A DNA stretch of 64,000 nt, from assembly GCA_964498135.1 (NCBI GenBank), contig CAZCGG010000001.1, positions 3,371 through 67,370 of the forward strand, written 5' to 3'. Source of the stretch: an uncultured Candidatus Moduliflexus sp. Its GTDB lineage: Bacteria; Moduliflexota; Moduliflexia; Moduliflexales; Moduliflexaceae. The position numbers and the translations under genes were made by a program. Under the pieces are notes generated by a model. It searched no databases. It was not told the DNA's origin and worked only from the letters and a program-made list of their open reading frames with translations. Shown here in pieces: positions 49,606-63,417 of the stretch; position 1 is the first letter of the stretch; every line of letters starts with the position of its first letter.

Positions 49606-51483
49606 CTAATTTTCCGCAAGCGGCAGGCGAATGTTAAAAATCGTTTTTTCCGCGCTGGCGCACGTGATGATGCCTTGATGCGCCTCAATGATATGCTGGC
49701 AGATGGACAGGCCGAGTCCGGTATTTTTCTTGCCGAGTTTCGTGCTGAAAAATGGATCAAAAATTTTATCCATGACTTCCGGCGGAATGCCCGATCCGTT
49801 ATCCGTCACCGCCAATTCGACATAACCTTCTTCATGTCGCGCATTCAGGGCAATCTCAATCGTTCCCGCTTCCGCAACCGCATCAATGCTGTTGACGACA
49901 AGGTTCATAATCACTTGCTTGAGTTGATTTTCATCCCCGATAATCGGCGCGTCATCGGCATTCTGCGTTCGTAGCAGCGCGATCTGCTTTTCTTTGAGCT
50001 TATGATTGAGCAGCAACAGCGTTTCATCCAACACCGCCGCCAAATTCACGCGCTTCATCGGCAGTGTTTTCCGCCGCGAAAACGACAGCAGACTTTCGAC
50101 AATCCCGCTGATGCGCTGAAGCTCGTCTTCGACTTTGCTCAATTTCTGCTGGCTGTCGTCATCTATCGCGGGTTTGCGCTTCAGTAGCGTGATGTAATTT
50201 TGAATAATGCCTAACGGATTGTTGATTTCGTGCGCAACCCCCGCCGCCACTTCCGCGACGGACGCGATTTTTTGCACGCGCAACAGATATTCATTAAAAT
50301 AGCGTTCCTGCGATACGTCGGCGATAATAATAATCGTGCCGAGAAATTTATAATCCTCGTCTTTGAACGGAAAAATTTGGATTTTCAGGATTTTTTCTTG
50401 TCCATATTTCACGTCATCCCACGCTTCTTCTTCCTGCCGGGAAATTTTTTCCAGAATTTCCGCCGCGTGTTCAATGGAATTGGCGGGGAAAATGGACTGC
50501 ACGCCCTGCCGAAGCATCGCCTGCTCATCAAGGCCGAGAATCCGCGCCGCCGCGTAATTGGCAAGATATACGACCTGCTCAGGATCGAGAATAATCACGC
50601 CTTCCGGCAGATTTTTAATGATATTTTCATTATATTTTTTCAGCAGATACAGTTCCCGGTTGTCGCTTTCCAACTCCTCGCGGCTCATGACAAAGGAATA
50701 GGTCAGCTTAATCAATTTCACTCGGTCGAGATCGCGGACTTCCTCCGTCCCGCGCAAATAGCCGTTATGCAGGATCGTCACGCGGTCGGCAAAGCGAAAA
50801 ATTTCGTCCATGTCGTGCGAAATGTAAATCACGCTTTTGCCCTGTTCTTTCCATTGAAACAGCAGTCGGTAAATGATTTCCATTTCTTCCGGCGTGAACT
50901 TGTTAGCGATTTCATCAAAAATCAACACGTTCGGATCAATGGAAAGCACTTTTGCCAATTCCACGACATGCTGCGCCGCTTCGGAGAGCATTTTAAGCGG
51001 AATGTTCAACGGAATTTCAACGCCAATCAGCGCGAAAATTTCTTTCGCCCGCGCCGCCATTTGACGATCTTTCAGCCAGCCCCAGCCATTCGCAATATCT
51101 CGCCCAGTGAAAATATTTTCCACGGCGGTCATGGTTGGAATAAGCTGGCTTTCTTGATACATCACGCCGATTTTATGCTTGAGAGCTAATTTCGGGGTAA
51201 AATATTCGAATTTCTGGCCGTCGAACCAGATGTCGCCGCGCGCTTTGCGCACCGCGCCGCTCAGCAGCTTGACTAACGTTGATTTTCCGGCGCGGTGTTC
51301 GCCGACCAATCCATGAATTTCGCCGCGATACAGGTCAAAATCCACCCCTTTCAGGATGTGATATTCCCCGTAATATGCATGAATATTTTTCATGGACAAC
51401 AGAGGCGTGTCGCGTTCGTTTTTTTCCATTTGGATATTGAGAAACTCTATTTCTGTGAGAAACTGAATTTCTCCGCGCCGCAA
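49606..51483 (-). CDS. sensor histidine kinase with N-terminal ABC-transporter-type ATPase (NBD) domain: NBD-PAS-HisKA-HATPase_c fusion
   Basis: N-terminal ~240 aa resemble RbsA/MglA NBD1: Walker A GEHRAGKST, Q-loop MYQESQL, signature LSEAAQHVVELAKVL, Walker B LIFDE, H-loop YISHDM. Then PAS, HisKA H-box AHEINNPLG, and N/G1/G2 boxes (NLVVNSIDA, DNGSGI, GLGLSIC). TTG start 7 nt after regulator stop (alternative ATG 51429). Confidence 0.8.
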   Translation of the reverse strand: MRRGEIQFLTEIEFLNIQMEKNERDTPLLSMKNIHAYYGEYHILKGVDFDLYRGEIHGLVGEHRAGKSTLVKLLSGAVRKARGDIWFDGQKFEYFTPKLALKHKIGVMYQESQLIPTMTAVENIFTGRDIANGWGWLKDRQMAARAKEIFALIGVEIPLNIPLKMLSEAAQHVVELAKVLSIDPNVLIFDEIANKFTPEEMEIIYRLLFQWKEQGKSVIYISHDMDEIFRFADRVTILHNGYLRGTEEVRDLDRVKLIKLTYSFVMSREELESDNRELYLLKKYNENIIKNLPEGVIILDPEQVVYLANYAAARILGLDEQAMLRQGVQSIFPANSIEHAAEILEKISRQEEEAWDDVKYGQEKILKIQIFPFKDEDYKFLGTIIIIADVSQERYFNEYLLRVQKIASVAEVAAGVAHEINNPLGIIQNYITLLKRKPAIDDDSQQKLSKVEDELQRISGIVESLLSFSRRKTLPMKRVNLAAVLDETLLLLNHKLKEKQIALLRTQNADDAPIIGDENQLKQVIMNLVVNSIDAVAEAGTIEIALNARHEEGYVELAVTDNGSGIPPEVMDKIFDPFFSTKLGKKNTGLGLSICQHIIEAHQGIITCASAEKTIFNIRLPLAEN

Positions 51484-51490
51484 GGCAAAA

Positions 51491-52810
51491 CTATATCCCT
51501 AATTTTTTCATGCGGTTATAAAGCGTTCTCCGGCTGATATTCAGCAAATCCGCCGCCTTCTGCTTCACGCCGCCGCTGCGCCCAAGCGCGTCAAGAATAA
51601 TCTCGCGGTTCAGGCTTTCAAACACTTCCTCATAGCTGCTCGTCGCCGCCCGTTGAATCAATTCCGTGTATTGCGTCGCCAAATCGTCAAGCTCAATCAT
51701 CGGATGCTCGCAGAAAATAATCGCCCGCTCCACGCAATTTTTGAGTTCACGGACATTGCCCGGCCATTGGTGCGAATGAAAAAATCGCCGCACGTCGTCT
51801 GACATGCCCTGAATCTGCTTCTGATACACCTCATTGTAATGCTTGATGAAATACTCCGCGAGCAGCAGCGCGTCGTCCTGCCGCTCGCGCAAGGGCGGCA
51901 AGTGCATCGTCACGACGGACAGCCGATAATACAGGTCATCGCGGAACGTCTGCTCTTCAATCATTTTTTGCAACGGCTTATTTGTGGCGGCGATAATCCG
52001 AATATCGGCTTTCAGCGTTTTCGAGCCGCCCACGCGCTCAAATTCCCGCTCTTGAATCACGCGCAGAATTTTGGCCTGCGTCCGCAAGCTCATGTCGCCG
52101 ATTTCATCGAGAAAAATCGTGCCGTTGTCCGCCAACTCGAATCGCCCCTTGCGCTCTTTGACCGCGCCGGTGAACGCCCCGCGCTCGTGGCCGAAGAGTT
52201 CGCTTTCCAGCAATTCTTCGGGCAACGCCGCGCAATTCACCTTGACGAACGGCTGCGCGGCGCGGCGGCTGAGGTGGTGAATGGAATTCGCCACCATCTC
52301 TTTGCCCGTGCCGCTTTCCCCCGTAATTAAGACCGGCGCGGGCGTCGGCGCGACTTTCTCAATCGTGTGGAGAATTTTCTGCATGGACGGATCCGCCGTC
52401 ACAATCTGATGCGCGCCGGTCGGCTTGGCTTGGCGTTTCCGCTCATCTCTGACCGCCAATTCGCGGATTTCCCGCACAAGTTCCTCAAATTTAATCGGCT
52501 TGGGATAGACGTTCACCGCCCCGTATTTCATGGCGCATACCGCGTCTTCAATCGTCGGATAGCCCGTAATCATAATGACAGGGAGGGCGCGCTGCTGCTG
52601 CTTAATCGTTTTCAGCAACTCGATGCCGCCGATGCCGGGCATGCGAATATCCATGATGAGCAGGTCAATCGCATGTTGCTGAAGCAGGCGAGATGCGTCA
52701 AGCGGATCTGTCGAGTATTCCACTGCATATCCTTCAGCGCGCAGCAATTCCGAGAGGGACAGGCACATTTCAACTTCATCGTCAATCAGCAGGATCGTAT
52801 AGGGCGTCAT
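51491..52810 (-). CDS. sigma54-dependent Fis-family response regulator (REC, AAA+ sigma54-activator, HTH)
   Basis: [11 protein letters not shown]...[16 protein letters not shown]; GESGTGKE Walker A; GAFTGA motif ([19 protein letters not shown]); C-terminal [25 protein letters not shown]. Confidence 0.9.
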
Positions 52811-52845
52811 GGCAAAAAAACAGCCCGGCGGGGTAAGCCGGGCTG
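52811..52845 (-). terminator. intrinsic terminator/attenuator after hydA, T-tract abuts regulator ATG
   Basis: CAGCCCGGC-GGGGTAA-GCCGGGCTG hairpin (52821-52845), followed on the minus strand by TTTTTTTGCC then ATG (52810). Confidence 0.6.
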
Positions 52846-52861
52846 TCGCGTGTTTCAGATG

Positions 52862-54613
52862 TTAGTCTTTTGTGTACTTCTTCTTCGGAAAATATTCCGT
52901 GTGCAGGAGCTCGTGAGCTTTGTGACTGCCCGGTTTTTCAAAGAACTCCGCATACAGGGTTTTAATGGACGGATTTTCATGCGATTTGCGAATGTCTTTA
53001 TCCGTATCCACCTGATACAACGCTTTTGTGCGCTGCTCGATGACTTCCTTCCGTTCTTCGCTGAACGGCTGACCGCCGCCGTTGATGCATCCGCCGGGGC
53101 AGGCCATGATTTCAATCACGTGATATTTCGATTTCCCTTCGCGGATGTTTTGCAACAGCGTCCGGGCGTTGCCAAGCCCCGAAGCCGCCGCGACATTCAA
53201 CTTTTTGCCGCCGAGGTCAATCGTCGTCTCGCGCACGCCTTGCAGCCCGCGCACGGCGGTAAAATTGACATCCTCCAGCGTTTTGCCGGTCGCCCATTCG
53301 TAGGCGGTGCGCAGCGCCGCTTCCAACACGCCGCCAGTCACGCCGAAAATCGCGCCCGCGCCGGTGGATTCGCCGAGTGGATTGTCGAAATCTTCTTCTT
53401 CGATGTAGCGCAGATCAATGCCGGCTTCCTTGAACATCTTCGCCAGTTCGCGCGTCGTGATCACCGTGTCAACGTCTCGCGCCCCGCTGGAGCAGTGTTC
53501 CGGGCGCGCCGCTTCATATTTCTTCGCCAAGCACGGCATGACGGAAACGACCTTCATTTCGTTCGGGCTGACGCCGATTTTCTGGGCATAGTAGGTTTTC
53601 GCCACCGTGCCGAGCATCTGCTGCGGCGATTTGCACGAAGACGGAATGTGCTTCAAATCCGGGAACTGATATTCGAAGAAATTAATCCACGCCGGGCAGC
53701 ACGACGTCAACACCGGCAGGTTTTCGTTCTTCTCAACTCGATCCAGAATCTCGCGGGCTTCTTCCATAATCGTCAAATCCGCGCCGAAATCGGTATCGAA
53801 CACGGCGTCAAAGCCGAGTTTCCGCAATCCGGCGGCGAGCTTGCGCGTCACCGGCTCGCCGAGCGGCAAACCAAATTCTTCGCCAATCGCGGCGCGAACC
53901 GCCGGGGCAATCTGCACGACGGAATGCTTCGCGTCGAAAATCGCCCGCCATGCCTGCTGCGTGGAATTGATGCCGAACAACGCGCCGGTCGGGCAAACGC
54001 TTACGCATTGGCCGCAATACGTGCAAATCGTGTCTTTCAGCGGCTTCATTTCCGCCGTGCCGACGACTGCCGGGAAACCGCGCCCGAAGCCGGTCAACAC
54101 GCCGACCGTCTGCACTTCGTTGCACATCGTTTCGCATCGGCGGCACATGATGCACTTGTCAGGCTCGCGTTTCAAGGCCATGCTGCTCTCATCATCAGGG
54201 TAGGACGATTGCGCCCCGTTGTACGGGCGCTGATTGATGCCGAATTCATACGCCAGCGCTTGCAATTCGCAATCGGTGGATTTCGGGCAGACTAAGCAAT
54301 CGAACGGGTGATCGGAAAGCAGCAGTTCCAGAATTTTCCGGCGCGACCGCAGCACGCGGCGGGAATTCGTCGTAATCTTCATCCCTTCAAACACCGGCGT
54401 GGCGCACGCGGGCGCAAGATTGCGGCGGCCTTCGACTTCGACCACACAAATTCGGCACGACGCCACCTTGTTGACCATTTTCAATTCTTCAAGATTCAGA
54501 TAGCATAAGGTCGGGATATGGATATGCACCTGTTTGGCGGCGTCCAAAATCGTCGTCCCCTCTTTGACCGCTATCGGCTGTTTGTCAATCGTGATATTTA
54601 CCATGTTTTTCAA
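52862..54613 (-). CDS. hydA: [FeFe]-hydrogenase catalytic subunit HydA (N-terminal 2Fe-2S and 4Fe-4S domains plus H-cluster domain)
   Basis: H-cluster motifs L1 TSCCPAW, L2 MPCLAKKYEA, L3 EIMACPGGCINGGGQ; NuoG-like N-terminus with Cys clusters. Confidence 0.92.
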   Translation of the reverse strand: MKNMVNITIDKQPIAVKEGTTILDAAKQVHIHIPTLCYLNLEELKMVNKVASCRICVVEVEGRRNLAPACATPVFEGMKITTNSRRVLRSRRKILELLLSDHPFDCLVCPKSTDCELQALAYEFGINQRPYNGAQSSYPDDESSMALKREPDKCIMCRRCETMCNEVQTVGVLTGFGRGFPAVVGTAEMKPLKDTICTYCGQCVSVCPTGALFGINSTQQAWRAIFDAKHSVVQIAPAVRAAIGEEFGLPLGEPVTRKLAAGLRKLGFDAVFDTDFGADLTIMEEAREILDRVEKNENLPVLTSCCPAWINFFEYQFPDLKHIPSSCKSPQQMLGTVAKTYYAQKIGVSPNEMKVVSVMPCLAKKYEAARPEHCSSGARDVDTVITTRELAKMFKEAGIDLRYIEEEDFDNPLGESTGAGAIFGVTGGVLEAALRTAYEWATGKTLEDVNFTAVRGLQGVRETTIDLGGKKLNVAAASGLGNARTLLQNIREGKSKYHVIEIMACPGGCINGGGQPFSEERKEVIEQRTKALYQVDTDKDIRKSHENPSIKTLYAEFFEKPGSHKAHELLHTEYFPKKKYTKD

Positions 54614-54688
54614 CGTACCGCATGCGCCCGGCTCGCGGAGAATCGTTCTCCTCCAAACGGGACATGTGCGGGACGATCCGGGCAGTCG

Positions 54689-56569
54689 TTACTTTTTGAT
54701 GATCGCTTTGAACTTACAGGTTGACATGCACGCGCCGCATTTGATGCACTTGCTCTGATCAATTGTATGCAACTGCTTCACCTGACCGGAAATGCAGTTG
54801 ACTGGGCAAACGCGAGCGCAGGCCGTGCAGCCTTTGCATTTCTCTGCCAAAATCTCATAGCGCAGCAACTTCTGGCAGACTCCGGCGGGGCAGCGTTTTT
54901 CTTCCACGTGCGCCTGATATTCGTCCATGAAATACTTCAGGGTGCTGAGCACCGGGTTCGGCGCCGTCTGACCAAGACCGCAAAGTGACGTGTCTTTAAT
55001 GATATTGGAGAGTTCTTCCAATTCCGCCAAATGTTCCGGCTTGCCGCGCCCTTCCGTAATATCCGTCAGGATTTCATGCAGGCGTTTGTTGCCGATGCGA
55101 CACGGCGTGCATTTGCCGCACGATTCGTCCACCGTGAATTCAAGGTAGAACTTGGCGATATTGACCATGCAATCTTTCGCGCTCAACACGATCATGCCGC
55201 CCGATCCCATCATTGAGCCAACCGCCGCCAAGGATTGATAGTCAATCGGCGTGTCGAGGAACTGTTTCGGGAGGCAGCCACCGGACGGCCCGCCGGTTTG
55301 CGCCGCTTTGAACTCTGCACCGTCTTTGATGCCGCCGCCGATTTCATAAATGATTTCCCGCAGCGTCGTTCCCATCGGCACTTCCACGAGGCCGACGTTA
55401 TTGATTTGGCCGGAGAGCGCGAACACTTTCGTCCCTTTCGAGGTCGCCGTGCCAATAGAACTGAACCATTCCGCGCCGTTCAAAATAATCGGCGGCACGC
55501 TGGCAAACGTTTCGACGTTGTTCACGTTTGTGGATTTGCCCCACACGCCTTCGACGGACGGGAACGGCGGTTTCGTGGTTGGCTCGCCGCGCTCGCCTTC
55601 AATGGAGTGAATCAGCGCGGTTTCTTCGCCGCAGACGAACGCACCCGCGCCGAGTTTGATTTGCAGATCGAAATTAAAGCCGGTGCCCATGATATTTTTG
55701 CCGATCAACCCGGCTTCTTTGGCTTGCGCTAAGGCGAGTTTCAGCCGTTTGATCGCCAACGGATATTCGGCGCGAATGTAGATGTAGCCGTTCGATGCGC
55801 CGATAGCATAGCCCGCAATCGCCATCGCCTCGAGGACGCTGTGCGAATCGCCTTCCATAATTGACCGATCCATGAACGCGCCCGGATCGCCTTCGTCCGC
55901 GTTGCAGATGATGAATTTTTCATCGCATTTCACAGAACGGGAAATTTCCCATTTTTTGCCGGTCGAGAAGCCGCCGCCGCCGCGCCCGGCCAGCCCGGAT
56001 TTTTTCACCGCGTCAATCACCTGTTCCGGCGTCATCTCGGTCAGCGCTTTGCCCAACGCCTGATATCCTTTGTTCGCAATATATTCTTCGATTTTTTCAG
56101 GGTTAATCAGACCGCAGTTCCGCAGGGAAATGCGCATTTGTTTTTTGTAGAACGTCATTTCCGCCTGCGTCTCGACTTTCTGTTTCAGCGTCGGTTCTTC
56201 GTACAGCAGCTTTTTCACGCGCTTTTTCTCGATGAGATGCGTCTGCACGATTTCTTCGGCATCTTCCGGCTTGACTTGGACGTAGAAGACGTTATCCGGG
56301 AAAATCTGAACAATCGGCCCTTTTTCGCAGAACCCGAAGCAGCCGGTAATGGAGACCTCCACGCTGTTCGTCAATTGCTGGTCGGCGACCGCTTGTTTGA
56401 AATTGGCGACGAGCCGCTGGCTTTCCGACGCCTGACAGCCCGTTCCGCCACAGACAAGCACCATCGTCTTCTGCTGTCCGGCGGCCTTCATATTCACGCG
56501 CGAATCGAGCAGCGACTTGACGTGATCGTATGTTCCCAATAATGCTTGATACGATGTAATCCGTTCCAT
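54689..56569 (-). CDS. hydB: NADH-binding flavoprotein subunit HydB (NuoF-like with N-terminal Trx-like 2Fe-2S and C-terminal 2x[4Fe-4S])
   Basis: 626 aa; VCGGTGCQ...CFGFCEKGP; GRGGGGFSTG FMN site; ESCGKCTPCRIG; C-terminal CPAGVC...CKGCTACARVCP...CIKCGACMSTC. Confidence 0.9.
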   Translation of the reverse strand: MERITSYQALLGTYDHVKSLLDSRVNMKAAGQQKTMVLVCGGTGCQASESQRLVANFKQAVADQQLTNSVEVSITGCFGFCEKGPIVQIFPDNVFYVQVKPEDAEEIVQTHLIEKKRVKKLLYEEPTLKQKVETQAEMTFYKKQMRISLRNCGLINPEKIEEYIANKGYQALGKALTEMTPEQVIDAVKKSGLAGRGGGGFSTGKKWEISRSVKCDEKFIICNADEGDPGAFMDRSIMEGDSHSVLEAMAIAGYAIGASNGYIYIRAEYPLAIKRLKLALAQAKEAGLIGKNIMGTGFNFDLQIKLGAGAFVCGEETALIHSIEGERGEPTTKPPFPSVEGVWGKSTNVNNVETFASVPPIILNGAEWFSSIGTATSKGTKVFALSGQINNVGLVEVPMGTTLREIIYEIGGGIKDGAEFKAAQTGGPSGGCLPKQFLDTPIDYQSLAAVGSMMGSGGMIVLSAKDCMVNIAKFYLEFTVDESCGKCTPCRIGNKRLHEILTDITEGRGKPEHLAELEELSNIIKDTSLCGLGQTAPNPVLSTLKYFMDEYQAHVEEKRCPAGVCQKLLRYEILAEKCKGCTACARVCPVNCISGQVKQLHTIDQSKCIKCGACMSTCKFKAIIKK

Positions 56570-57121
56570 TTATGCCTCCTCCTTGCTTTCCGTTTCCACC
56601 AGATATTCTTCAACGATGCCGCGAACGCTTTCCGGTTTCACTTTGCCGTACACTTTTTCATTAATCATCACGACCGGCGCAAGGCCGCATGCGCCGACGC
56701 AGCGCAGACTTTCAATAGAAAAGCGTTTATCTTCGGTCACTTCGCCGGATTTAATGCCTAACACGCGCTCGAATTCGGCCAGCACTTTTTCCGCGCCGCG
56801 CACGTAGCAGGCCGTTCCCATGCAGACGTTGATTTTGTACTGCCCTTTCGGCGTCGTTGTGAAATAATTGTAAAAACTGATGACGCCGGAGACTTCCGCA
56901 TGATGAACGCCAAAGCGCGTGGCGATGTGCAATTGAACTTCTTCGGGCAGATAGCCGAAAATTTCCTGCGCTTTGTGCAACGATTGAATCAGAAATTCTT
57001 TCTTTCTGGCCGCCTGCGGCTCAACGCCCAATTCTTCGATAAACCGGTCAAGTTCATCATAGAGCGGCTCAGGGAGAATGCGTTGGACAGGTTCCGGGTT
57101 GATATGCAGCTTGTTTAACAT
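56570..57121 (-). CDS. hydC: NuoE-like [2Fe-2S] subunit HydC
   Basis: 183 aa; CMGTACYVRG ... CVGACGLAPV thioredoxin-like ferredoxin motifs. Confidence 0.9.
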   Translation of the reverse strand: MLNKLHINPEPVQRILPEPLYDELDRFIEELGVEPQAARKKEFLIQSLHKAQEIFGYLPEEVQLHIATRFGVHHAEVSGVISFYNYFTTTPKGQYKINVCMGTACYVRGAEKVLAEFERVLGIKSGEVTEDKRFSIESLRCVGACGLAPVVMINEKVYGKVKPESVRGIVEEYLVETESKEEA

Positions 57122-57202
57122 GCGTTCCCCTCCTTACACGGGTGCGTGATTCACTCACATGCCGCGCCTGCGCGGAACATTATGCCATGCGGGTGAATCG
57201 GG

Positions 57203-58366
57203 TTAACAATACTCGATTGTAACATCTTTGTGCAATTCGCGCAGCAGTCGGGCTAATTGCTCCACCAGATTTTTACGAATCGAGATGCTGACGGGCAGCA
57301 GCGGATTTTGATAAAACGGGTTAATCTGCTGCCCGACTAAAAAATGCAAATCGTCGGCATACAAAATTTCCAGCGCAAGCATGGTCGCGCCGTTGATGTC
57401 GGTCGGCAAGCGGCTGTAATCGCCGCGACTCTCTTTGATATGCTCAATCGCCTTGCTGATGGTCAAAATGCCTTCCGTCAGCAGATCTATGCCGTCCAGC
57501 ACGCCGATGGGCGGCGTATCGGGCTTCAACGTGGCGAGTTCGACTTCGATGTCTTGACGCAGATAGCGGGCGACGATATTGCCCGTCGTGCCGCCGCACA
57601 CGATTTTCCGTCCGTCAAATTCCGCGACGCGCTGGGCGCAGCGTTCGTCCTCAGCGCGATCAAGCGGCGGGCCGGTGAAAATCATGGCCGAATGGCGCGG
57701 CCGGAGATACAAGCCGATGAGCGTGGCGTCATCGCCGGGCTGGCTGCCATACAGCATGTTCGTATAATCCAGCACGCGCTCCACGACGGTTTGGGCGGTA
57801 TTGACGCGGCTGTGCAGGATTTCCGCCATGAACTCCGCAATATTGTTCCAGCCCCAGCCAAAATTGAAGGTTTGCCCCAAGCCCGCATACCAGACGCCAT
57901 CGCTGACCGCCGCTAAAAAATCTCCTTCCTCCAACGTCCCTTCTCGAAGCAAGATTTTTTTGTCAAGAATGTTCAAAATCTTCGGCTCAATCTTTTGCTG
58001 AACGCCTCCGGCCTTGAAAAAGAACGTTTCAGGGTTATCGAAATTCATCACGCGGAAATGAAACGAGTGGTGGTCAATTTCAACGACCGTGAACGTGGCA
58101 TACGCGATATTGCGGACTTTGCAAATCGGCAGCGTGCCGAGAATCGTCTCCACCACGTCATACAGCGCGGCGTCGGCTTTCAGCATGGTGATGATGATTT
58201 GCGACGTGAGCGTCGCCAAAATGCTCGCTTTAATCCCGCTGCCCAGCCCATCGGACAGCACGACCCACGTTTTCGTATCCGTCCGGGCGATTTTGACTTG
58301 ATCGCCGCAGATTTCTTCCCCGAATTTGTTCAGCGATTGATACGAAATATCGAGGAAGTGGCTCAT
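57203..58366 (-). CDS. SpoIIE/PP2C-family serine phosphatase with ~150-aa uncharacterised C-terminal domain
   Basis: CGDQVKIARTDTKTWVVLSDGLGSGIKAS, SDGVWYAGLG, GDDATLIGLYL PPM motifs; C-terminal KIVCGGTTGNIVARYL... unrecognised. Confidence 0.75.
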   Translation of the reverse strand: MSHFLDISYQSLNKFGEEICGDQVKIARTDTKTWVVLSDGLGSGIKASILATLTSQIIITMLKADAALYDVVETILGTLPICKVRNIAYATFTVVEIDHHSFHFRVMNFDNPETFFFKAGGVQQKIEPKILNILDKKILLREGTLEEGDFLAAVSDGVWYAGLGQTFNFGWGWNNIAEFMAEILHSRVNTAQTVVERVLDYTNMLYGSQPGDDATLIGLYLRPRHSAMIFTGPPLDRAEDERCAQRVAEFDGRKIVCGGTTGNIVARYLRQDIEVELATLKPDTPPIGVLDGIDLLTEGILTISKAIEHIKESRGDYSRLPTDINGATMLALEILYADDLHFLVGQQINPFYQNPLLPVSISIRKNLVEQLARLLRELHKDVTIEYC

Positions 58367-58896
58367 CGCCGCAACACCTCTTGTTCGACCATTGCTCGGA
58401 GTTTCAGCAGGCTGACTTTGGTTTCCGCCGTCGCTTCGCCCAATAACCCAGCGATTTCCTGCGCAACGTGCATGTGCTTGTTCACGACCTGATTGACTTG
58501 CTCAAGCGTTTCGCGCTGAATGCGGAGCATGTCGTTCTGCTGCTGCCATTCATGCGTCAAATCAACGATAATGCAGGCGACAAAGCCTTCGTTTTTGATG
58601 GGGAAAATCACGCGGCGGGCGTATAAATGGTATTGGGGATATTCGGTTTCCGGGCATTTCACGACTTTATTCTCGCGCCACGCGGTTTGCAGATCGTTCG
58701 CATCCCCAAGCACGGCGGCGATGTCCCGATCCAGCAGATCGGCCTCCGTTTGTTTGAACATATCGCAGAATGCCGGATTGACAAGGCGGATCCGCATGGT
58801 TTGATCCACCACAACCAGCCCATTCGGGTCATAATCCCACAGCAACTTCCAGAGCGTATCGGCGGCGCGGAACGGCATGGCCGGAACTCCTTTCAT
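58363..58896 (-). CDS. stand-alone PAS-domain protein with C-terminal helical segment
   Basis: 177 aa; PAS core LVVVDQTMRIRLVNPAFCDMFKQTEADLLDRDI...; overlaps neighbours by 4 nt on both sides. Confidence 0.65.
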   Translation of the reverse strand: MKGVPAMPFRAADTLWKLLWDYDPNGLVVVDQTMRIRLVNPAFCDMFKQTEADLLDRDIAAVLGDANDLQTAWRENKVVKCPETEYPQYHLYARRVIFPIKNEGFVACIIVDLTHEWQQQNDMLRIQRETLEQVNQVVNKHMHVAQEIAGLLGEATAETKVSLLKLRAMVEQEVLRR

Positions 58897-59162
58897 GACC
58901 GGAGATGCGGCAACATCTCATTGACGAATTTTTCTTCGATATTTTGCGGACGGATGCGCGTGAACAACATCGTTTTGTATTTCAACACAATGCCATCCGA
59001 GCAGGGGCCGAGGCAGAACGCCCCTTTCAATTCAACCGTGAGGTCTAAACGATAGCGCTCAATCAATTCCTGCAATTTTGGCAGCACGTCATAGACGCCT
59101 AATTGATGGCAGGCCGATCCCATGCACACATATAAACACGCTGTTGCTGTTTCTTGTTCCAT
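58893..59162 (-). CDS. thioredoxin-like [2Fe-2S] ferredoxin (NuoE-fold, 89 aa)
   Basis: Cx4C ... Cx3C: VCMGSACHQLG ... FCLGPCSDG. Confidence 0.75.
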   Translation of the reverse strand: MEQETATACLYVCMGSACHQLGVYDVLPKLQELIERYRLDLTVELKGAFCLGPCSDGIVLKYKTMLFTRIRPQNIEEKFVNEMLPHLRS

Positions 59163-59460
59163 CTATGCCGTCCCTGCCTGCTGTTCAGGCCAAACATCGC
59201 CGTTTCGTCTCTCGTGAAAAACGCGGCGGGAAAACAGCGATTTCTTTTGCCCATTCCATAAAGAATTCTTGACTTTTTTTCGTGAACGCCGCAGAGTGAA
59301 TGCAGGAGAATGATGAGACACATTGCCATATCCCGTCATTCTTGTCAAGTCAAGAGATTGGAAAGTTGAAAATCGCCAGAAAAGGCGCGCGCATTCTCCG
59401 CGCCGATGCCGAATTTCCTCTCAATGAGAACCCTCATGACGCTCAAAGGAGGCGCTCATT

Positions 59461-61116
59461 ATGTCAATCTATCGTGCGCATGTTTTAGTTTCCACTGACG
59501 CCGAAAGCCGACTGCGCGGCGCGGAACAAGTCATTCAGCGTCTTCGGGATGAACTCGCCAAGCGCGACTTAGCCAATGAAATCATGGTCGCCGAAACCGG
59601 CAACCCCGGTCGCGGCGTCCGGCTGCCCGCCGTATTAGTCTATCCCGACGGCGTGACGTATCAGGCCATCTCGCCGGAAGACGCCGCCATCATCGTCGAG
59701 GAACACCTCTACAAAGGCCGCGTGGTCAAAGAATTTACCTCCCAACTCGCGCCGATGACCGGCAGCATCGTTCGCCTTCCCAAAGCGCATAAGCATTTTC
59801 AGGAACAGCAGAAAATCGTGCTGAAAAATTGCGGCGACATCAACCCCGAAGTGATTGAAGAATATATCGCTGTTGACGGCTACATGGCGCTTGGCAAGGC
59901 ATTAACCAACATGACACCGGCACAGACGCTTGAGGAAATCAAAGCCTCCGGGCTGCGCGGACGCGGCGGCGCGGGCTTTCCGACCGGGCGCAAGCTGGAA
60001 TTTTCGCTCGGCGTCAAAGCCGCGCAAAAATATATCGTCTGCAACGCCGACGAATCCGAACCCGGCACGTTCAAAGACCGCCTGATTATCGAGGGCGACC
60101 CGCATAAGCTGATTGAAGGGATGATCATTGCCGGCTATTGCATCGGCGCGACGCAGGGCTACGTCTATATTCGCGGCGAATACGTGCTGGCGCATGACCG
60201 CCTGCTCAAAGCCATCGAGCAAGCTCGGGAAATGGGGCTGCTGGGGAACAATATTTTCAATTCCGGGTTCAATTTCGACATTTTCGTGCATTCCGGCGCG
60301 GGCGCGTATGTTTGCGGCGAAGAGACCGCGCTGCTGAATTCGCTCGAAGGCCAGCGCGGCGAACCGCGCAAACGCCCTCCGTTCCCGCCGGTCGCCGGAT
60401 TTCACCAGATGCCGACCATCGTGAACAATGTCGAAACGCTCGCCAACCTGCCGCCGATTCTGCTGAATGGCGCGGCATGGTTCACGCGCTTCGGCACAGA
60501 AAATTCAACCGGCACGAAAGTTTATACCATGCTCGGCAACATCAACAATACCGGCCTGATTGAAGTGCCGATGGGGATTACGCTGCGCGAAGTCATCGAA
60601 TTCTACGGCGGCGGCATGAAAGATGGCCGGGCGTTCAAATTCGCCCAGACCGGCGGCAGTTCCGGCTCGATTATTCCGCAGGAATTGCAGGACGTGCCGA
60701 TGGATTTCGCGTCAATGGCGAAATACGGCGTGTCAATGGGGTCGGGCGCGCTGCTGATTTGCGATGACCGCGCGTGCGTTGTGGACGTGATTAAAGTGCT
60801 GCTCAATTTTTTCAAGGTCGAATCATGCGGCAAATGCGCGCCCTGCCGAATCGGCACGCAGCAGTTGCACGACGCGTTTGCGCGGATTGCGGGCGGCGTC
60901 GGCACGATGGACGATTTAGAGCGCGCCGCGCATGTGGGCGAGCAGATGATCAAAGCGAGCTTCTGCGGGCTTGGGCAGACCGCGCCCGCGCCGATTCTGA
61001 CAGGCTTGAAATATTTCCGCAGCGAAATCGAAGCGCACATCAGAGATCAGTATTGCGAAGCGAATGTCTGCGAATTCGAGCTTGTGAAAAAGAAAAAAAG
61101 CCCCTCCGCCAAATAG
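59461..61116 (+). CDS. NuoF-like NAD(H)/FMN-binding iron-sulfur protein paralog lacking N-terminal [2Fe-2S] Cys and C-terminal ferredoxin domains
   Basis: 551 aa; GRGGAGFPTG, ESCGKCAPCRIG...C present; N-terminal Trx-like region has no Cys; ends shortly after the SLBB/4Fe-4S module. Confidence 0.85.
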   Translation: MSIYRAHVLVSTDAESRLRGAEQVIQRLRDELAKRDLANEIMVAETGNPGRGVRLPAVLVYPDGVTYQAISPEDAAIIVEEHLYKGRVVKEFTSQLAPMTGSIVRLPKAHKHFQEQQKIVLKNCGDINPEVIEEYIAVDGYMALGKALTNMTPAQTLEEIKASGLRGRGGAGFPTGRKLEFSLGVKAAQKYIVCNADESEPGTFKDRLIIEGDPHKLIEGMIIAGYCIGATQGYVYIRGEYVLAHDRLLKAIEQAREMGLLGNNIFNSGFNFDIFVHSGAGAYVCGEETALLNSLEGQRGEPRKRPPFPPVAGFHQMPTIVNNVETLANLPPILLNGAAWFTRFGTENSTGTKVYTMLGNINNTGLIEVPMGITLREVIEFYGGGMKDGRAFKFAQTGGSSGSIIPQELQDVPMDFASMAKYGVSMGSGALLICDDRACVVDVIKVLLNFFKVESCGKCAPCRIGTQQLHDAFARIAGGVGTMDDLERAAHVGEQMIKASFCGLGQTAPAPILTGLKYFRSEIEAHIRDQYCEANVCEFELVKKKKSPSAK

Positions 61117-61539
61117 AGCTTTTATGAGCGCGCAGGCCGTACCCGGCGTGACATTTTTCGGGGAGATAATTCTGTATGCTATGGCAAGAGGTTTGCGAAC
61201 ATCCCGCGTTGCGGAATTTGCCGTTCAAGATTGAATTGAACAAACGAGGAACAATCCTTATGAGTCCGGTCAACGTGTCGCATTCGTTATTTCAAGGGAA
61301 AATCCTGATTTTGCTGAAAACGCTCTTTCACGAAGGAAGTCTGGCATTGCGCTGAAGACGGGACGCTGACCTTGTACAGTCCAGTTGGGAAAATGCCGCA
61401 TTCCAGCCTTGCGCCTGCGTTTCCGGCGAAGATCGACTTATAAAAGATTGACGCGGTGGCATGAATTTTGCTTGGAATATCCCTGACGCATCTCACTATG
61501 CACAACACAATAAACACATCTTTCAAAGAGGAACGCATT

Positions 61540-62184
61540 ATGAAACATCTGAATCGAATGGGGAACGTTTTTGGCATGCTGTTGGCCGCTCTGCTGGCCT
61601 CTTCGCAAATGGGATTGGCCTGCGAACAAGGTTCGTTTCGGGATTTCAGCGGCGCAACGGACGTTGAATTCGGCAGCGGCACGGTCTATAAATATTCCGT
61701 CATCGCGGACGGAAAATTTCAGTATGTCAAATTCAGCGCCACCGGCGGCGAACTTGGGAACACGTGGAACGAAGGGAACACCTATTATGCCGAAGTGCGC
61801 TGGACGCAAAATAGCGCGGACGATCCCTCGAAGTTGAAAGTTTATGGCGAAGACAAGTGCGGCACGATGCAGGATTTGCGCCATTTCGTCAAGCCCGCCA
61901 GCGGCGGATCGCGCGGCGCGTCCAAAGGAATTGTGCGGCTCTTTGACCAAGAATCGGGCAAAGGGAAGAGTTTTGTCGCGGCGCAAAGCCTTGAAAAGCT
62001 TGGCAACAAGTGGAATGACAAAATCCGGTCGGTCTGGGTCGGCGGCGGCGTCACGCTGATTCTGTATGAAAATTACGAGCATAAAGGCCGCAGCGTGACG
62101 CTGCGCGGCGAAGGCGAGGGCACGATGTTCAACCTCTCGTCCTACGATTTCGACAAAATCGCGTCATCGCTCAAGGTTGAGTAA
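61540..62184 (+). CDS. secreted beta/gamma-crystallin-fold protein
   Basis: ATG 61540 preceded by AAGAGGAA; signal peptide MKHLNRMGNVFGMLLAALLASSQMGLA; C-terminal Greek-key signature ...WNDKIRSVWVGGG...YENYEHKGRSVTL...FDKIASSLKVE. Confidence 0.7.
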   Translation: MKHLNRMGNVFGMLLAALLASSQMGLACEQGSFRDFSGATDVEFGSGTVYKYSVIADGKFQYVKFSATGGELGNTWNEGNTYYAEVRWTQNSADDPSKLKVYGEDKCGTMQDLRHFVKPASGGSRGASKGIVRLFDQESGKGKSFVAAQSLEKLGNKWNDKIRSVWVGGGVTLILYENYEHKGRSVTLRGEGEGTMFNLSSYDFDKIASSLKVE

Positions 62185-62195
62185 ACGGCTGTCTC

Positions 62196-62237
62196 AAAAA
62201 AACCTGACTGGTGTTCAAGACCGGTCAGGTTTTTTTA
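62196..62237. terminator. bidirectional intrinsic terminator between convergent genes
   Basis: AAAAAAACCTGACTGG-TGTTCAAGA-CCGGTCAGGTTTTTTT; stop codon of the minus-strand kinase gene lies in the loop. Confidence 0.7.
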
Positions 62238-63417
62238 TGCCAACAATCGGCTTCGGCAGCGTCAGATGAAACATCGTGCCGATTCCGGCTTTGCTCTCAA
62301 CCCAAATATTCCCGCCATTTTGCTCCGCTAATTCTTTGCAGAGAATCAACCCCAGCCCCGAGCCTTTTTCGCCGGACGTGCCGGCGCGGCTGAATTTCAC
62401 GTCAATCCGAAATAATTTTTCCACATCGCCTTCTGACATGCCGACGCCGTTATCGGCAATCGTGATTTCCACATCGTCGGCATGCTCAATCGCGGCAAGC
62501 CGGATTGCGCCGCCGACCGGCGTAAATTTCAGCGCGTTCGAAATACAATTCCGCAAAATGGTATTCACCATCTCTTGATCAGCATAGACAAATATATCGC
62601 TGCCGAAATCGAAGGCGAGCGTGATGCGCTTCTGCGACGCATTGGCGGAAAAGACCGTCATCATCAGGCTGGTCAGCGAATTCAACGGAAATCGCTGCGG
62701 CGCGTATGCGATGAGGCCGCGCTGCAAGCGTGACCATGTGAGTAAATTTTCAAGAAGTTCATAAACGCTTTTCGTGGTTTTCTCCAAGATACCTAACGCT
62801 TCTCGAATCTCCTCCGCGCTGTACTCCTGCCAACTTTCGGAAAAAAGCTGCGTCAAGCCAATCAGCCCGTGAAACGGGGAGCGCAGGTCGTGGGCGATAA
62901 TCGAAAAGAACGTGTCTTTGCTGGCATTGGCGGCTTCCAGCGCGGCCGTCCGCTCTTTGACCTGCTGTTCCAGCACCGCGTTCATATTGCGCAGCACCTC
63001 GTTCTGCTCCGCCAAGCGCTTATCCTGATCAAACCGGCGAATCGCCTCTTTGACGGTCAAAATCAGGTCGGTCGTTTCCCAAGGTTTGGCGATGTAGCGA
63101 TAGAGCTCGGCGCGGTTCACGGCATCGGTGACGGCATCCAAATCCGCTTGGCCGGTCAGCAGAATGGTCAGCGTGTTGGGAGATCGTTCATGAATCCGGC
63201 GCAACAGGTCATTGCCCTTCATGTCGGGCATGATCTGATCCGAAATCACGACGGGGATTTCATGCCGCTCGGCAAGCAGTTCTTCGAATAATTCCAGCGC
63301 GTCGTTTCCACTGTCGGCGGTTTCGATAAAAAAATCAGGGAAAGGCCTCTGCAATTCCCGTTTCAGGCTTTTTAAAACGATTTCCTCGTCATCAACGCAA
63401 AAAATCACTCGTTCCAT
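62215..63417 (-). CDS. hybrid response regulator/histidine kinase (REC, coiled coil, HisKA, HATPase_c)
   Basis: N-terminal REC VIFCVDDEEIVLKS...ISDQIMPDMKGND...; H-box IAHDLRSPFHG; G-boxes DNGVGM, GSGLGL. Confidence 0.85.
   Translation of the reverse strand: MERVIFCVDDEEIVLKSLKRELQRPFPDFFIETADSGNDALELFEELLAERHEIPVVISDQIMPDMKGNDLLRRIHERSPNTLTILLTGQADLDAVTDAVNRAELYRYIAKPWETTDLILTVKEAIRRFDQDKRLAEQNEVLRNMNAVLEQQVKERTAALEAANASKDTFFSIIAHDLRSPFHGLIGLTQLFSESWQEYSAEEIREALGILEKTTKSVYELLENLLTWSRLQRGLIAYAPQRFPLNSLTSLMMTVFSANASQKRITLAFDFGSDIFVYADQEMVNTILRNCISNALKFTPVGGAIRLAAIEHADDVEITIADNGVGMSEGDVEKLFRIDVKFSRAGTSGEKGSGLGLILCKELAEQNGGNIWVESKAGIGTMFHLTLPKPIVGIKKPDRS

What the first reader, a model, noticed from the sequence alone, without database searches (positions are those of the whole stretch)
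49606..59162. Nine-gene hydrogenase operon wiring bifurcating-type HydABC to a PAS/PP2C module and a sigma54 two-component pair
All nine genes are co-directional on the minus strand with 0-80 nt gaps or 4-nt overlaps. The order is Trx-like [2Fe-2S] ferredoxin, PAS protein, PP2C phosphatase, HydC, HydB, HydA, terminator, sigma54 NtrC-type regulator, then ABC-NBD-PAS histidine kinase. HydABC with H-cluster motifs L1-L3 is the classical trimeric NADH/ferredoxin [FeFe]-hydrogenase. As far as I recall, known HydABC loci (Thermotoga, Thermoanaerobacterium hfs) carry a PAS-containing sensory [FeFe]-hydrogenase (HydS/HfsB), a PP2C phosphatase and a GHKL Ser-kinase. This locus has the PAS and PP2C parts but no sensory hydrogenase and no GHKL kinase. 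Instead it carries a sigma54 enhancer-binding regulator and a kinase of unprecedented architecture. That points to a different, possibly undescribed, regulatory circuit for H2 metabolism.
Basis: partly seen in the sequence, partly recalled or inferred. Interest (0 to 1): 0.85.

Follow-up and report, generated by a model that had tools for sequence, protein, structure and literature searches.

The report
Hydrogenase operon with sensor-less HydS module
A normal NADH-linked [FeFe] hydrogenase operon is preceded by a widespread but apparently unstudied three-gene signalling module: the output half of the known 'sensory hydrogenase' system, without its hydrogen-sensing domain. The neighbouring sigma-54 two-component pair is most likely a sugar-transport regulator that only happens to lie next to it.

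Summary
The genes and domains are real, but there are eight genes, not nine. The region holds two units.

**Unit 1 (conserved in Moduliflexus-like KSB3 bacteria):** a divergent NuoF-like gene, then Trx-like [2Fe-2S] (89 aa), PAS protein (177 aa), PP2C (387 aa), HydC, HydB and HydA. The first three genes are collinear homologues of the [2Fe-2S] / HydS (HfsB) / PP2C (HfsC) genes of sensory-hydrogenase loci. The sensor, however, is reduced to its C-terminal PAS plus helical hairpin. This "short" trio is common (34 of 63 classifiable loci). It sits beside HydABC, ferredoxin-type [FeFe] hydrogenases and, in filamentous cyanobacteria, the [NiFe] Hox hydrogenase.

**Unit 2:** the NtrC-type regulator and the ABC-NBD–PAS–histidine kinase.
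- The kinase architecture is not unprecedented: more than 2,700 homologues were found.
- The pair is conserved as a pair in about 77 of 80 genomes.
- Elsewhere it sits beside CUT2 sugar ABC transporters with sigma-54 promoters, and beside a hydrogenase in only 1 of 80 loci.
- The closest relative with the same hyd operon has efflux genes after hydA, not this pair.
- No sigma-54 promoter or matching upstream site lies near hyd.

**Verdict:** the sigma-54 wiring is unsupported. The hydrogenase-domain-less HydS module is a genuine new variant of a known kind.

The parts
58893..59162 (-). Small thioredoxin-like [2Fe-2S] protein (89 aa); first gene of the trio
   Evidence: Pfam PF01257, weak but specific. 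Four invariant Cys (C13, C18, C50, C54) across KSB3, cyanobacterial and Halobacteroides homologues (A3). 36% identical (E 4e-22) to the 81-aa gene preceding HydS in Halobacteroides halobius.
58363..58896 (-). PAS domain plus DHp-like helical hairpin (177 aa); homologue of the C-terminal output module of HydS/HfsB, lacking the H-cluster domain and the PF04060 Fe-S motif
   Evidence: Exhaustive search: residues ~5-173 align with the last ~165 residues of 550-580-aa proteins. These proteins are Fer4, Fe_hyd_lg_C, FeS and PAS. 32% identity, E 6e-28, to H. halobius HydS residues 402-561. Invariant tail motif VAQEIAGLLGExTAxTK. AF2 model pLDDT 85: PAS fold plus two long helices; Foldseek hits PAS/LOV-DHp kinases.
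57203..58366 (-). PP2C (SpoIIE/RsbU/RsbX-type) Ser/Thr phosphatase with a conserved C-terminal Rossmann-like domain (387 aa); HfsC homologue
56570..57121 (-). HydC (NuoE-like [2Fe-2S] subunit)
   Evidence: PF01257, E 5e-49; NuoE/HoxE models.
54689..56569 (-). HydB (NuoF-like FMN/NADH subunit with an N-terminal Trx-like domain and a C-terminal 2x[4Fe-4S] domain)
   Evidence: Pfam; NuoF family.
52862..54613 (-). HydA, catalytic [FeFe] hydrogenase subunit with H-cluster motifs
   Evidence: Fe_hyd_lg_C E 1e-98 and Fe_hyd_SSU. NF040763, 870 bits, above the 765 cut-off. Motifs read.
52819..52847 (-). Intrinsic terminator after hydA; its T-tract runs directly into the GCC-ATG start of the regulator gene
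59461..61116 (+). Divergent stand-alone NuoF-like flavoprotein (551 aa; cysteine-free Trx-like N-terminus). It is a conserved neighbour of the trio in the KSB3 lineage
   Evidence: Pfam. The same divergent gene lies next to the trio in L086, L088, L172 and L173; 77-78% identity.
59258..59275 (-). Conserved promoter-region element AAGTCAAGAATTCTTTAT (contains the 10-bp palindrome AAGAATTCTT), about 100 nt upstream of the trio's first ATG
   Evidence: Unique in the window; chance expectation 0.08. The same 13-mer sits at the same relative place in L086 and L088, with a variant in L087. Function unknown.
51491..52810 (-). NtrC/AtoC-type sigma-54-dependent response regulator (separate module)
   Evidence: REC, Sigma54_activat (E 3e-75) and HTH_8. 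GAFTGA is present in the translation. Lies immediately upstream of the NBD-kinase in ~77 of 80 genomes.
49606..51483 (-). ABC-NBD, PAS, HisKA and HATPase_c histidine kinase (probable true start 51429; separate module)
   Evidence: Pfam. More than 2,700 homologues; the top 120 all have the same architecture and are ~604 aa. The NBD is closest to the N-terminal NBD of CUT2 sugar ATPases YtfR/AraG/AlsA/RbsA/XylG. The PAS-DHp-CA part resembles ThkA, PDB 3a0r.

Best explanation
Two functional units lie back to back.

**Unit 1.** This is the conserved hydrogenase cluster of Moduliflexus-like (KSB3) bacteria: a divergent NuoF-like gene, then Trx-like [2Fe-2S], PAS-hairpin protein, PP2C, HydC, HydB and HydA. 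HydABC is an ordinary NADH/ferredoxin-linked [FeFe] hydrogenase. The three leading genes are a hydrogenase-domain-less version of the HydS(HfsB)/PP2C(HfsC) sensory system. The order [2Fe-2S] -> sensor -> PP2C is retained, but the sensor is only the PAS plus helical-hairpin output half.

Inferred mechanism: the trio has no H-cluster of its own, so it cannot bind H2. Instead the small [2Fe-2S] protein reports the redox state of the electron pool, or of the NuoE/F-type diaphorase module of the partner enzyme. It passes this to the dimeric PAS-hairpin protein, which gates the PP2C. The PP2C dephosphorylates a still-unknown phospho-Ser/Thr target and so tunes hydrogenase expression or activity. Homology and gene linkage are shown. 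The signal, the interactions and the substrate are inferred.

**Unit 2.** The NtrC-type regulator and the NBD-PAS-kinase form an independent, widespread pair. Elsewhere this pair sits beside a sigma-54-dependent CUT2 sugar ABC transporter operon and most likely controls it. The kinase's CUT2-type NBD probably couples sensing to the transporter. In this genome the pair has landed between the hydA terminator and a tRNA cluster. Its adjacency to hyd is most likely positional, not regulatory.
For: **Trio equals the HydS system minus the H-domain**
- All three proteins match the collinear Halobacteroides halobius genes: Trx-like 81 aa, HydS 562 aa, SpoIIE 382 aa. The values are E 4e-22, 6e-28 and 2e-93, with full-length coverage for Trx and PP2C and coverage of the HydS C-terminus for PAS.
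- The exhaustive search maps the PAS protein onto the C-termini of Fer4/Fe_hyd_lg_C/FeS/PAS proteins.
- Loci L123, L124, L130, L132 and L171 read Trx, HydS, PP2C, HydC, HydB, HydA. This is the window's order with HydS in place of PAS.

**The short trio is a real, selected entity**
- 34 short versus 29 long loci.
- PP2C is 56-79% identical and length-conserved from KSB3 to cyanobacteria.
- Invariant Cys4 in Trx and an invariant tail motif in PAS.

**Link to hydrogenases carrying a NuoE/F module**
- The trio lies behind hoxEFUYH in cyanobacterial loci.
- It lies with HydABC in L087, L115, L117, L118, L172 and L173.
- It lies with only a NuoF-like gene in L088.

**Two-component pair is independent**
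- Regulator and kinase are paired in ~77 of 80 loci; HydA/HydB is nearby in 1 of 80.
- Sugar-binding protein and permease are neighbours in 68 and 70 of 80 loci.
- Sigma-54 promoters abut the pair in ~35 loci, with a TGGGAA-N6-TTCCCA upstream site.
- In the window the upstream site occurs only at chance level, and there is no -24/-12 element upstream of hyd.
- L173 (PP2C 76% identical, Ca. Moduliflexus flocculans cluster) has RND efflux genes after hydA.
- The same metagenome has the pair beside an ABC transporter on another contig.
Against: - The regulator gene starts 51 nt after hydA. The terminator's T-tract abuts its ATG, with no Shine-Dalgarno sequence and no room for a promoter. Its transcription may therefore depend on read-through from the hyd operon, which would be a form of coupling.
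- One KSB3 relative (L087) has a different sigma-54 activator 1 kb beyond hydA.
- One database protein fuses a HydS-like PAS to a sigma-54 AAA+ domain (P0250).
- No sugar transporter is present in the window, so the pair's target here is unknown.
- For the trio, no kinase and no substrate are encoded nearby.
- The PAS domain has no conserved Cys or His to suggest a cofactor.
- The redox-sensing role of the [2Fe-2S] protein is inferred only from its position and its cysteine ligands.
Confidence: 0.7

Rival explanations
1. The sigma-54 regulator and the NBD-PAS kinase are the dedicated transcriptional arm of the hydrogenase circuit. They replace HydS and the GHKL kinase and control the hyd operon together with the PAS/PP2C module.
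For: - Same strand, with a 51-nt gap, and the terminator abuts a start codon that has no ribosome-binding site or promoter space.
- L087 has a REC-PAS-sigma-54 activator near hydA.
- P0250 fuses a HydS-like PAS to a sigma-54 activator.
- Precedent from established knowledge: the Ralstonia HoxJ/HoxA H2-sensing circuit uses an NtrC-family regulator (summarised in PMC5707799).
Against: - No TGGC-N8-TGC or usable GG-N10-GC element lies upstream of the operon.
- The upstream site used by this regulator family elsewhere is absent.
- The pair is linked to sugar ABC transporters in 68-70 of 80 loci and to a hydrogenase in 1 of 80.
- The closest relative's hyd operon is followed by efflux genes.
- A strong terminator separates hydA from the pair.
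Confidence: 0.1
2. The trio is not a signalling device but an accessory to the enzyme. The small [2Fe-2S] protein is an extra electron-transfer subunit. The PAS and PP2C proteins act in the assembly, maturation or stabilisation of NuoE/F-containing hydrogenases.
For: - Small Trx-like [2Fe-2S] proteins are encoded in hydrogenase operons. A Thermotoga example was characterised biochemically (Pan et al. 2003, cited in PMC10055695).
- The trio is co-operonic with structural genes and overlaps them translationally.
- It accompanies three different hydrogenase types.
Against: - PAS plus a DHp-like hairpin plus a PP2C with intact metal-binding aspartates is a signalling architecture.
- The homologous HydS/Hfs genes give regulatory, not structural, phenotypes in Thermoanaerobacterium (PMC5707799; PMC11837493).
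- In L088 the trio occurs without any hydrogenase structural genes.
Confidence: 0.12
3. The 177-aa PAS gene is merely a decayed remnant of a HydS gene in this genome, a pseudogene fragment without function.
For: It aligns only with the C-terminal third of HydS.
Against: - Stand-alone PAS proteins of 165-186 aa recur in 34 loci from several phyla.
- They share 48-79% identity and an invariant tail motif.
- They keep a 4-nt overlap with the flanking genes.
- No H-domain remnant lies between Trx and PAS.
Confidence: 0.03

Closest known systems
HydS / HfsB sensory [FeFe]-hydrogenase loci (group C). Examples: Thermotoga maritima HydS, Ruminococcus albus HydS, Thermoanaerobacterium hfsABCD, and the Halobacteroides halobius locus L091
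   Same: - Same gene order: small Trx-like [2Fe-2S], then a PAS-bearing sensor, then a SpoIIE-type PP2C with the same C-terminal domain.
- Often placed directly in front of hydCBA (L123, L130, L171).
- The PAS plus tail carries the same invariant motif.
   Different: - The sensor lacks the two N-terminal [4Fe-4S] motifs, the whole H-cluster domain and the PF04060 4-Cys motif, so it cannot sense H2 through its own H-cluster.
- The PP2Cs form a distinct, more conserved group: 40-73% identical to the window's PP2C, against 36-43% for HydS-linked ones.
- The short form also accompanies [NiFe] Hox hydrogenases. The long form was never seen to do so here.
Electron-bifurcating HydABC of Thermotoga maritima and related NADH-dependent [FeFe] hydrogenases
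   Same: Three subunits with the expected cofactor-binding domains and H-cluster motifs. HydA passes the NCBIfam curated cut-off.
   Different: Nothing notable in the structural genes. Bifurcating activity itself cannot be tested here.
Partner-switching PP2C phosphatases (RsbU, RsbX, SpoIIE)
   Different: No STAS substrate, no GHKL anti-sigma kinase and no sigma factor is encoded nearby. The C-terminal Rossmann-like domain is not found in those phosphatases.
AtoS/AtoC- and NtrB/NtrC-type sigma-54 two-component systems; CUT2 sugar ABC ATPases (RbsA, XylG, AraG)
   Same: - The regulator has REC, an AAA+ domain (GAFTGA) and HTH_8.
- The kinase has PAS, HisKA and HATPase_c.
- The N-terminal domain is a CUT2-type NBD with Walker A, Walker B and an H-loop.
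   Different: - All scores are below the equivalog cut-offs (AtoS 260 vs 646; AtoC 440 vs 714), so the pair is not AtoSC.
- The kinase is soluble, with an NBD in place of a membrane sensor.
- Sensing through a transporter is known in principle for BceS-BceAB (own knowledge). There, however, the kinase and the ATPase are separate proteins.
HoxBC-HoxJ-HoxA H2-sensing circuit of Ralstonia eutropha
   Same: A known case where an NtrC-family regulator and a PAS kinase control hydrogenase genes (as summarised in PMC5707799).
   Different: That circuit needs a regulatory [NiFe] hydrogenase bound to the kinase. No such sensor, no homology, and no sigma-54 promoter at the hyd operon is seen here.

Membership tests
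NADH-dependent / bifurcating-type HydABC [FeFe] hydrogenase | HydA with an H-cluster domain (motifs L1-L3) plus N-terminal [2Fe-2S] and [4Fe-4S] domains | tested here: met
   Pfam Fe_hyd_lg_C 1e-98, Fe_hyd_SSU, Fer2_4 and NADH-G_4Fe-4S_3. NF040763, 870 bits vs cut-off 765. Motifs read.
NADH-dependent / bifurcating-type HydABC [FeFe] hydrogenase | NuoF-like HydB (FMN/NADH site, [4Fe-4S], extra ferredoxin domains) and NuoE-like HydC, encoded adjacently | tested here: met
   (Complex1_51K, NADH_4Fe-4S, Fer4 x2, 2Fe-2S_thioredx); gene order.
NADH-dependent / bifurcating-type HydABC [FeFe] hydrogenase | Synergistic NADH plus ferredoxin-dependent H2 production | not testable with these tools
   Requires enzymology.
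HydS/HfsB-type sensory hydrogenase system ([FeFe] group C) | The sensor protein contains an H-cluster (Fe_hyd_lg_C) domain | tested here: not met
   The PAS protein is 177 aa with PAS hits only. No second Fe-hydrogenase domain in the window. None within +/-10 kb in relatives L172 and L173.
HydS/HfsB-type sensory hydrogenase system ([FeFe] group C) | 4-Cys 'FeS' motif (PF04060) between the H-domain and PAS | tested here: not met
   Present in HydS hits. Absent from the window protein. No invariant Cys.
HydS/HfsB-type sensory hydrogenase system ([FeFe] group C) | C-terminal PAS domain plus conserved helical tail | tested here: met
HydS/HfsB-type sensory hydrogenase system ([FeFe] group C) | Adjacent SpoIIE-type PP2C (HfsC) downstream and a small Trx-like [2Fe-2S] gene upstream | tested here: met
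   the same arrangement in 29 long-form loci.
   None among the eight ORFs. Also not seen in L091 or in long-form loci where HydC abuts HydB, so it is probably not a defining feature.
NtrC-type sigma-54 two-component system | Regulator with REC, a sigma-54-interaction AAA+ domain (GAFTGA) and HTH; adjacent HisKA/HATPase_c kinase | tested here: met
   pairing conserved.
NtrC-type sigma-54 two-component system | A sigma-54 (-24/-12) promoter with an upstream activator site at the regulated operon | tested here: not met
   Met in other genomes, next to ABC transporter genes. In the window none lies at hyd, and the upstream site occurs only at chance level. The only good -24/-12 site is at 61457, before an unrelated secreted-protein gene.
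AtoS/AtoC (name given by several databases) | Score above the NCBIfam equivalog cut-off | tested here: not met
   AtoS 259.8 vs 646; AtoC 439.7 vs 714.
ABC-transporter nucleotide-binding domain (CUT2 type) | Walker A, Q-loop, signature, Walker B and H-loop | tested here: met
   GEHRAGKST, the DE of Walker B and the H-loop ISH are invariant in 20 homologues. The signature is the CUT2-like LSEAxQQ variant. Best NCBIfam hits are YtfR, AraG, AlsA and RbsA.

The most novel reading that the evidence does not exclude
The Trx-like [2Fe-2S] / PAS-hairpin / PP2C trio is a self-sufficient redox-sensing phospho-switch that does not depend on the hydrogenase type. It would control hydrogenases built on a NuoE/F diaphorase: [FeFe] HydABC in KSB3 and other anaerobes, and [NiFe] Hox in filamentous cyanobacteria. 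This would mean that HydS-type signalling does not in principle need an H2-binding domain. It would also mean that cyanobacterial Hox has an unrecognised post-translational or Ser/Thr-phosphorylation-based regulator.
Probability: 0.35. Interest if true: 0.7.

Novelty: new variant of a known kind. Interest (0 to 1): 0.5.

Why it matters
How HydS-type sensory hydrogenases pass on their signal is unknown. How the NAD(P)H-linked hydrogenases (HydABC, Hox) are regulated beyond transcription is also largely unknown.

A naturally "beheaded" version of the system keeps the [2Fe-2S] protein, the PAS-hairpin and the PP2C. It is strongly conserved from KSB3 bacteria to cyanobacteria and follows both [FeFe] and [NiFe] enzymes. 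It therefore isolates the signalling core and suggests that the conserved input may be redox state rather than H2.

This gives direct experiments: knock-outs, phosphoproteomics and reconstitution. These could be done in organisms of biotechnological interest, such as H2-producing cyanobacteria and ethanologenic thermophiles, where hfsB loss raises ethanol yield.

The negative result matters too. The NBD-fused kinase plus NtrC pair should not be annotated as a hydrogenase regulator. It is a widespread, uncharacterised module linked to sugar transporters, and it is interesting in its own right.

Tried and rejected
- **Sigma-54 promoter upstream of the hyd operon.** TGGC-N8-TGC gave 14 sites in the window, against 11.5 expected, and none lies in 59162-59461. 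The loose GG-N10-GC pattern gave only one poor match.
- **Upstream activator site of the regulator family.** TGGGAA-N6-TTCCCA, derived from other loci, occurs in the window only at chance level.
- **Rex operator.** TTGTGAA-N4-TTCACAA has no credible site.
- **ABC transporter in the window.** A sugar-binding protein or permease homologue was sought in the whole window; none found.
- **Literature.** No paper in the searchable library describes PAS/PP2C genes behind cyanobacterial hox operons or a hydrogenase-less HydS module. Absence from this library is not proof of novelty. Zheng et al. 2014 (R. albus HydS) is not held.
- **Structure prediction of the PAS protein.** It was redone with HydS proteins.
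- **Low-GC stretch at 16-34 kb.** A genomic island was considered. It is the ribosomal-protein/secY/rpoA/EF-G region, so it is not an island.
- **The ~160-aa gene after the cyanobacterial PP2C.** It was considered as the missing GHKL kinase or as HoxW. It has no Pfam hit at E <= 1.

Full report
**Observation**

The minus strand between 49606 and 59162 carries eight ORFs, not nine, with short gaps or 4-nt overlaps.
- a small thioredoxin-like [2Fe-2S] protein (58893-59162);
- a PAS protein (58363-58896);
- a SpoIIE-type PP2C (57203-58366);
- HydC, HydB and HydA (56570-57121, 54689-56569, 52862-54613);
- a REC/sigma-54-activator/HTH_8 regulator (51491-52810);
- an ABC_tran/PAS/HisKA/HATPase_c kinase (49606-51483; the true start is probably 51429, because near-identical database proteins are 607 aa).

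HydA shows the three H-cluster motifs. It also exceeds the curated NCBIfam cut-off for NADH-dependent [FeFe] hydrogenase (870 vs 765 bits). A strong terminator follows hydA. No other Fe-hydrogenase domain exists in the 64-kb window. Downstream lie a tRNA cluster and tuf. Upstream, on the other strand, is a stand-alone NuoF-like gene (59461-61116).

**The two-component pair**

The kinase architecture is not unprecedented. More than 2,700 proteins match at E <= 1e-10, and the best 120 all have the same domains and are about 604 aa.

A scan of one genome per species returned 80 loci, mostly Spirochaetota. The closest (61-64% identity) were the KSB3/Modulibacteria genomes UASB270 and UASB14 and Ca. 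Moduliflexus and Ca. Vecturithrix MAGs. The comparison gave these results:
- The NtrC-type gene lies directly upstream of the kinase in about 77 of the 80 loci. HydA/HydB lies within 10 kb in only one, 8 kb away on the other strand.
- The conserved neighbours are a periplasmic sugar-binding protein (68 loci), a BPD_transp_2 permease (70 loci) and a double-NBD ATPase. Together these form a CUT2 sugar ABC transporter.
- About 35 loci have a strict TGGCAY-N5-TTGCW promoter immediately next to the pair, facing the transporter genes.
- These promoters are preceded by a palindrome, TGGGAA-N6-TTCCCA.
- The kinase's NBD is most similar to the N-terminal NBD of CUT2 ATPases: YtfR, AraG, AlsA, RbsA and XylG.

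The window has no transporter homologue. The palindrome occurs only at chance level. No -24/-12 element lies upstream of the hyd operon.

The most telling comparison is the closest relative with sequence beyond hydA. Locus L173 has a PP2C 76% identical to the window's, and its protein cluster includes Ca. Moduliflexus flocculans GAK53170.1. It has the same NuoF-like | Trx-PAS-PP2C-HydC-HydB-HydA cluster, but RND efflux genes follow hydA. The same metagenome has the regulator-kinase pair on another contig, next to a sugar transporter (L082).

I conclude that the pair is an independent module linked to a sugar transporter, and that it was relocated here. One caveat remains. The regulator's ATG follows the terminator's T-tract directly, with no ribosome-binding site or promoter space. 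Its expression in this genome may therefore depend on read-through from hyd.

**The trio**

The PP2C has more than 5,000 homologues. The best 120 are 347-400 aa (most 386-388) and 56-97% identical, including many from filamentous cyanobacteria such as Arthrospira/Limnospira, Planktothrix and Lyngbya.

In those cyanobacterial loci the order is hoxE-hoxF-(hcp)-hoxU-hoxY-hoxH, then an 84-94-aa gene, a 167-172-aa PAS gene, the PP2C, and a ~160-aa ORF. So the same trio follows a [NiFe] bidirectional hydrogenase.

An exhaustive search with the 177-aa PAS protein found stand-alone homologues. It also found end-to-end alignments to the last ~165 residues of 550-580-aa proteins. These proteins are Fer4/Fe_hyd_lg_C/FeS(PF04060)/PAS, which is the HydS-type sensory hydrogenase architecture.

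In Halobacteroides halobius the locus reads Trx-like (81 aa), HydS (562 aa), SpoIIE (382 aa), Trx-like, [FeFe] hydrogenase, Rex, AdhE. Apart from the extra Trx-like gene before the second hydrogenase, this is an hfsABCD-type arrangement, as described for Thermoanaerobacterium (PMC5707799; PMC11837493). All three window proteins match their collinear counterparts there:
- Trx: 36% identity, E 4e-22.
- PAS residues 13-173 against HydS residues 402-561: 32% identity, E 6e-28.
- PP2C over its full length, including the C-terminal domain: 36% identity, E 2e-93.

A metagenome scan with the PP2C alignment plus tblastn typing gave 34 "short" loci (Trx, stand-alone PAS, PP2C) and 29 "long" loci (Trx, HydS, PP2C).
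- Short-form PP2Cs are 40-73% identical to the window's PP2C. Long-form ones are 36-43% identical.
- The short form sits beside Hox (10 loci), HydABC (4), only a NuoF/HydB-like gene (3) or a ferredoxin-type hydrogenase (3).
- The long form sits beside ferredoxin-type hydrogenases (10) or HydABC (5, plus 2 partial), and never beside Hox.
- Several long loci (L123, L124, L130, L132, L171) read Trx, HydS, PP2C, HydC, HydB, HydA. This is the window's order with HydS in place of PAS.

**Anatomy**

The Trx-like protein has four invariant cysteines, in the C-x4-C ... C-x3-C pattern.

The PAS protein has no invariant Cys or His. It has an invariant tail motif, VAQEIAGLLGExTAxTK, shared with HydS. Its AF2 model (pLDDT 85) is a PAS fold followed by two long helices, with the motif at the turn between them. 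Foldseek aligns the model with PAS/LOV-DHp segments of histidine kinases.

**Mechanism**

Three things are shown. The trio is homologous to the [2Fe-2S]/HydS/PP2C system. It lacks an H-cluster domain. It is genetically linked to hydrogenases, most of which contain a NuoE/F diaphorase module.

The rest is inferred. The [2Fe-2S] protein would report redox state rather than H2. The dimeric PAS-hairpin protein would transduce this signal, and the PP2C would dephosphorylate an unknown target. The conserved threonines at the hairpin tip are one candidate substrate, and the diaphorase subunits are another. Neither a kinase nor a substrate is encoded in the locus.

A conserved element, AAGTCAAGAATTCTTTAT, lies about 100 nt upstream of the trio. 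It recurs at the same place in related KSB3 loci and may be the operator or promoter of this operon.

**Comparison and novelty**

The structural genes are ordinary HydABC. The trio works like, and descends from the same stock as, the HydS/Hfs system. It fails that family's defining feature, a sensory hydrogenase domain, so it is best called a new variant of a known kind.

I found no description of it, or of PAS/PP2C genes behind cyanobacterial hox operons, in the searchable literature. That is not proof of novelty.

The claim of an unprecedented kinase architecture is wrong.

**Scores**

Interest is 0.5: the original story collapses, but what remains is a well-supported and experimentally approachable lead on how NAD(P)H-linked hydrogenases are sensed and regulated.

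Noticed in passing
window 61457-61472 (+) and 61540-62184 (+): The best sigma-54-type promoter in the window, TGGCATGAATTTTGCT, lies about 70 nt before a gene for a signal-peptide-bearing 214-aa protein. The protein has a beta/gamma-crystallin / peptidase-inhibitor I36-like C-terminal domain. No TGGGAA-N6-TTCCCA site lies upstream, so which activator drives it is unknown.
   Followed up: partly
window 59258-59275 (-): The element AAGTCAAGAATTCTTTAT (with inner palindrome AAGAATTCTT) is conserved in the divergent promoter region between the NuoF-like gene and the trio. It also occurs in L086 (8973), L088 (8988) and, as a variant, in L087. It is a candidate operator or promoter of unknown factor.
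   Followed up: partly
window 62215-63417 (-): A REC-HisKA-HATPase_c hybrid kinase (400 aa). A 60%-identical copy lies in the same neighbourhood as the NuoF-like gene and the trio in L088. This may be shared synteny or a functional neighbour.
   Followed up: partly
window 52810-52862: The regulator's ATG follows the hydA terminator T-tract directly (…GCCGGGCTGTTTTTTTGCCATG), with no Shine-Dalgarno sequence and no promoter space. In other genomes the regulator has 100-600 nt of upstream intergenic DNA.
   Followed up: partly
loci L001, L003, L006, L011, L017, L043, L081, L082 and others, between kinase and ABC transporter genes: A family-wide regulatory signature for the NBD-kinase/NtrC pair: one or two TGGGAA-N6-TTCCCA palindromes about 100-230 nt upstream of a TGGCAY-N5-TTGCW promoter, facing a CUT2 sugar transporter operon. 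This module appears uncharacterised. Databases call it AtoS/AtoC, but it scores far below those cut-offs.
   Followed up: partly
L084 9242-9721; L085 9234-9728; L089 11192-11677: In cyanobacteria a conserved ~160-aa ORF follows the PP2C (45-55% identity among loci). It has no Pfam match even at E <= 1. It may be a fourth member of the Hox-linked version and is absent from the window.
   Followed up: partly
protein P0250: A 643-aa protein with GAF, a HydS-like PAS (41% identical to the window's PAS protein), Sigma54_activat and HTH_8. In some organism this PAS type is fused directly to a sigma-54 activator.
   Followed up: no
L119; L146, L152, L153, L166: Variant arrangements of the module. In L119 the PAS segment precedes an H-domain (Trx, PAS, H-domain, PP2C). 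In the other four loci about 1.8 kb of unidentified coding sequence lies between Trx and PAS, with no match to the HydS H-domain.
   Followed up: no
L087 16747-18558 (-): A KSB3 genome with the same Trx-PAS-PP2C-HydCBA operon has a REC-PAS-sigma-54 activator (603 aa, 37% identical to the window's regulator in the AAA+ part). It lies 1 kb beyond hydA on the opposite strand, without an NBD-kinase.
   Followed up: no
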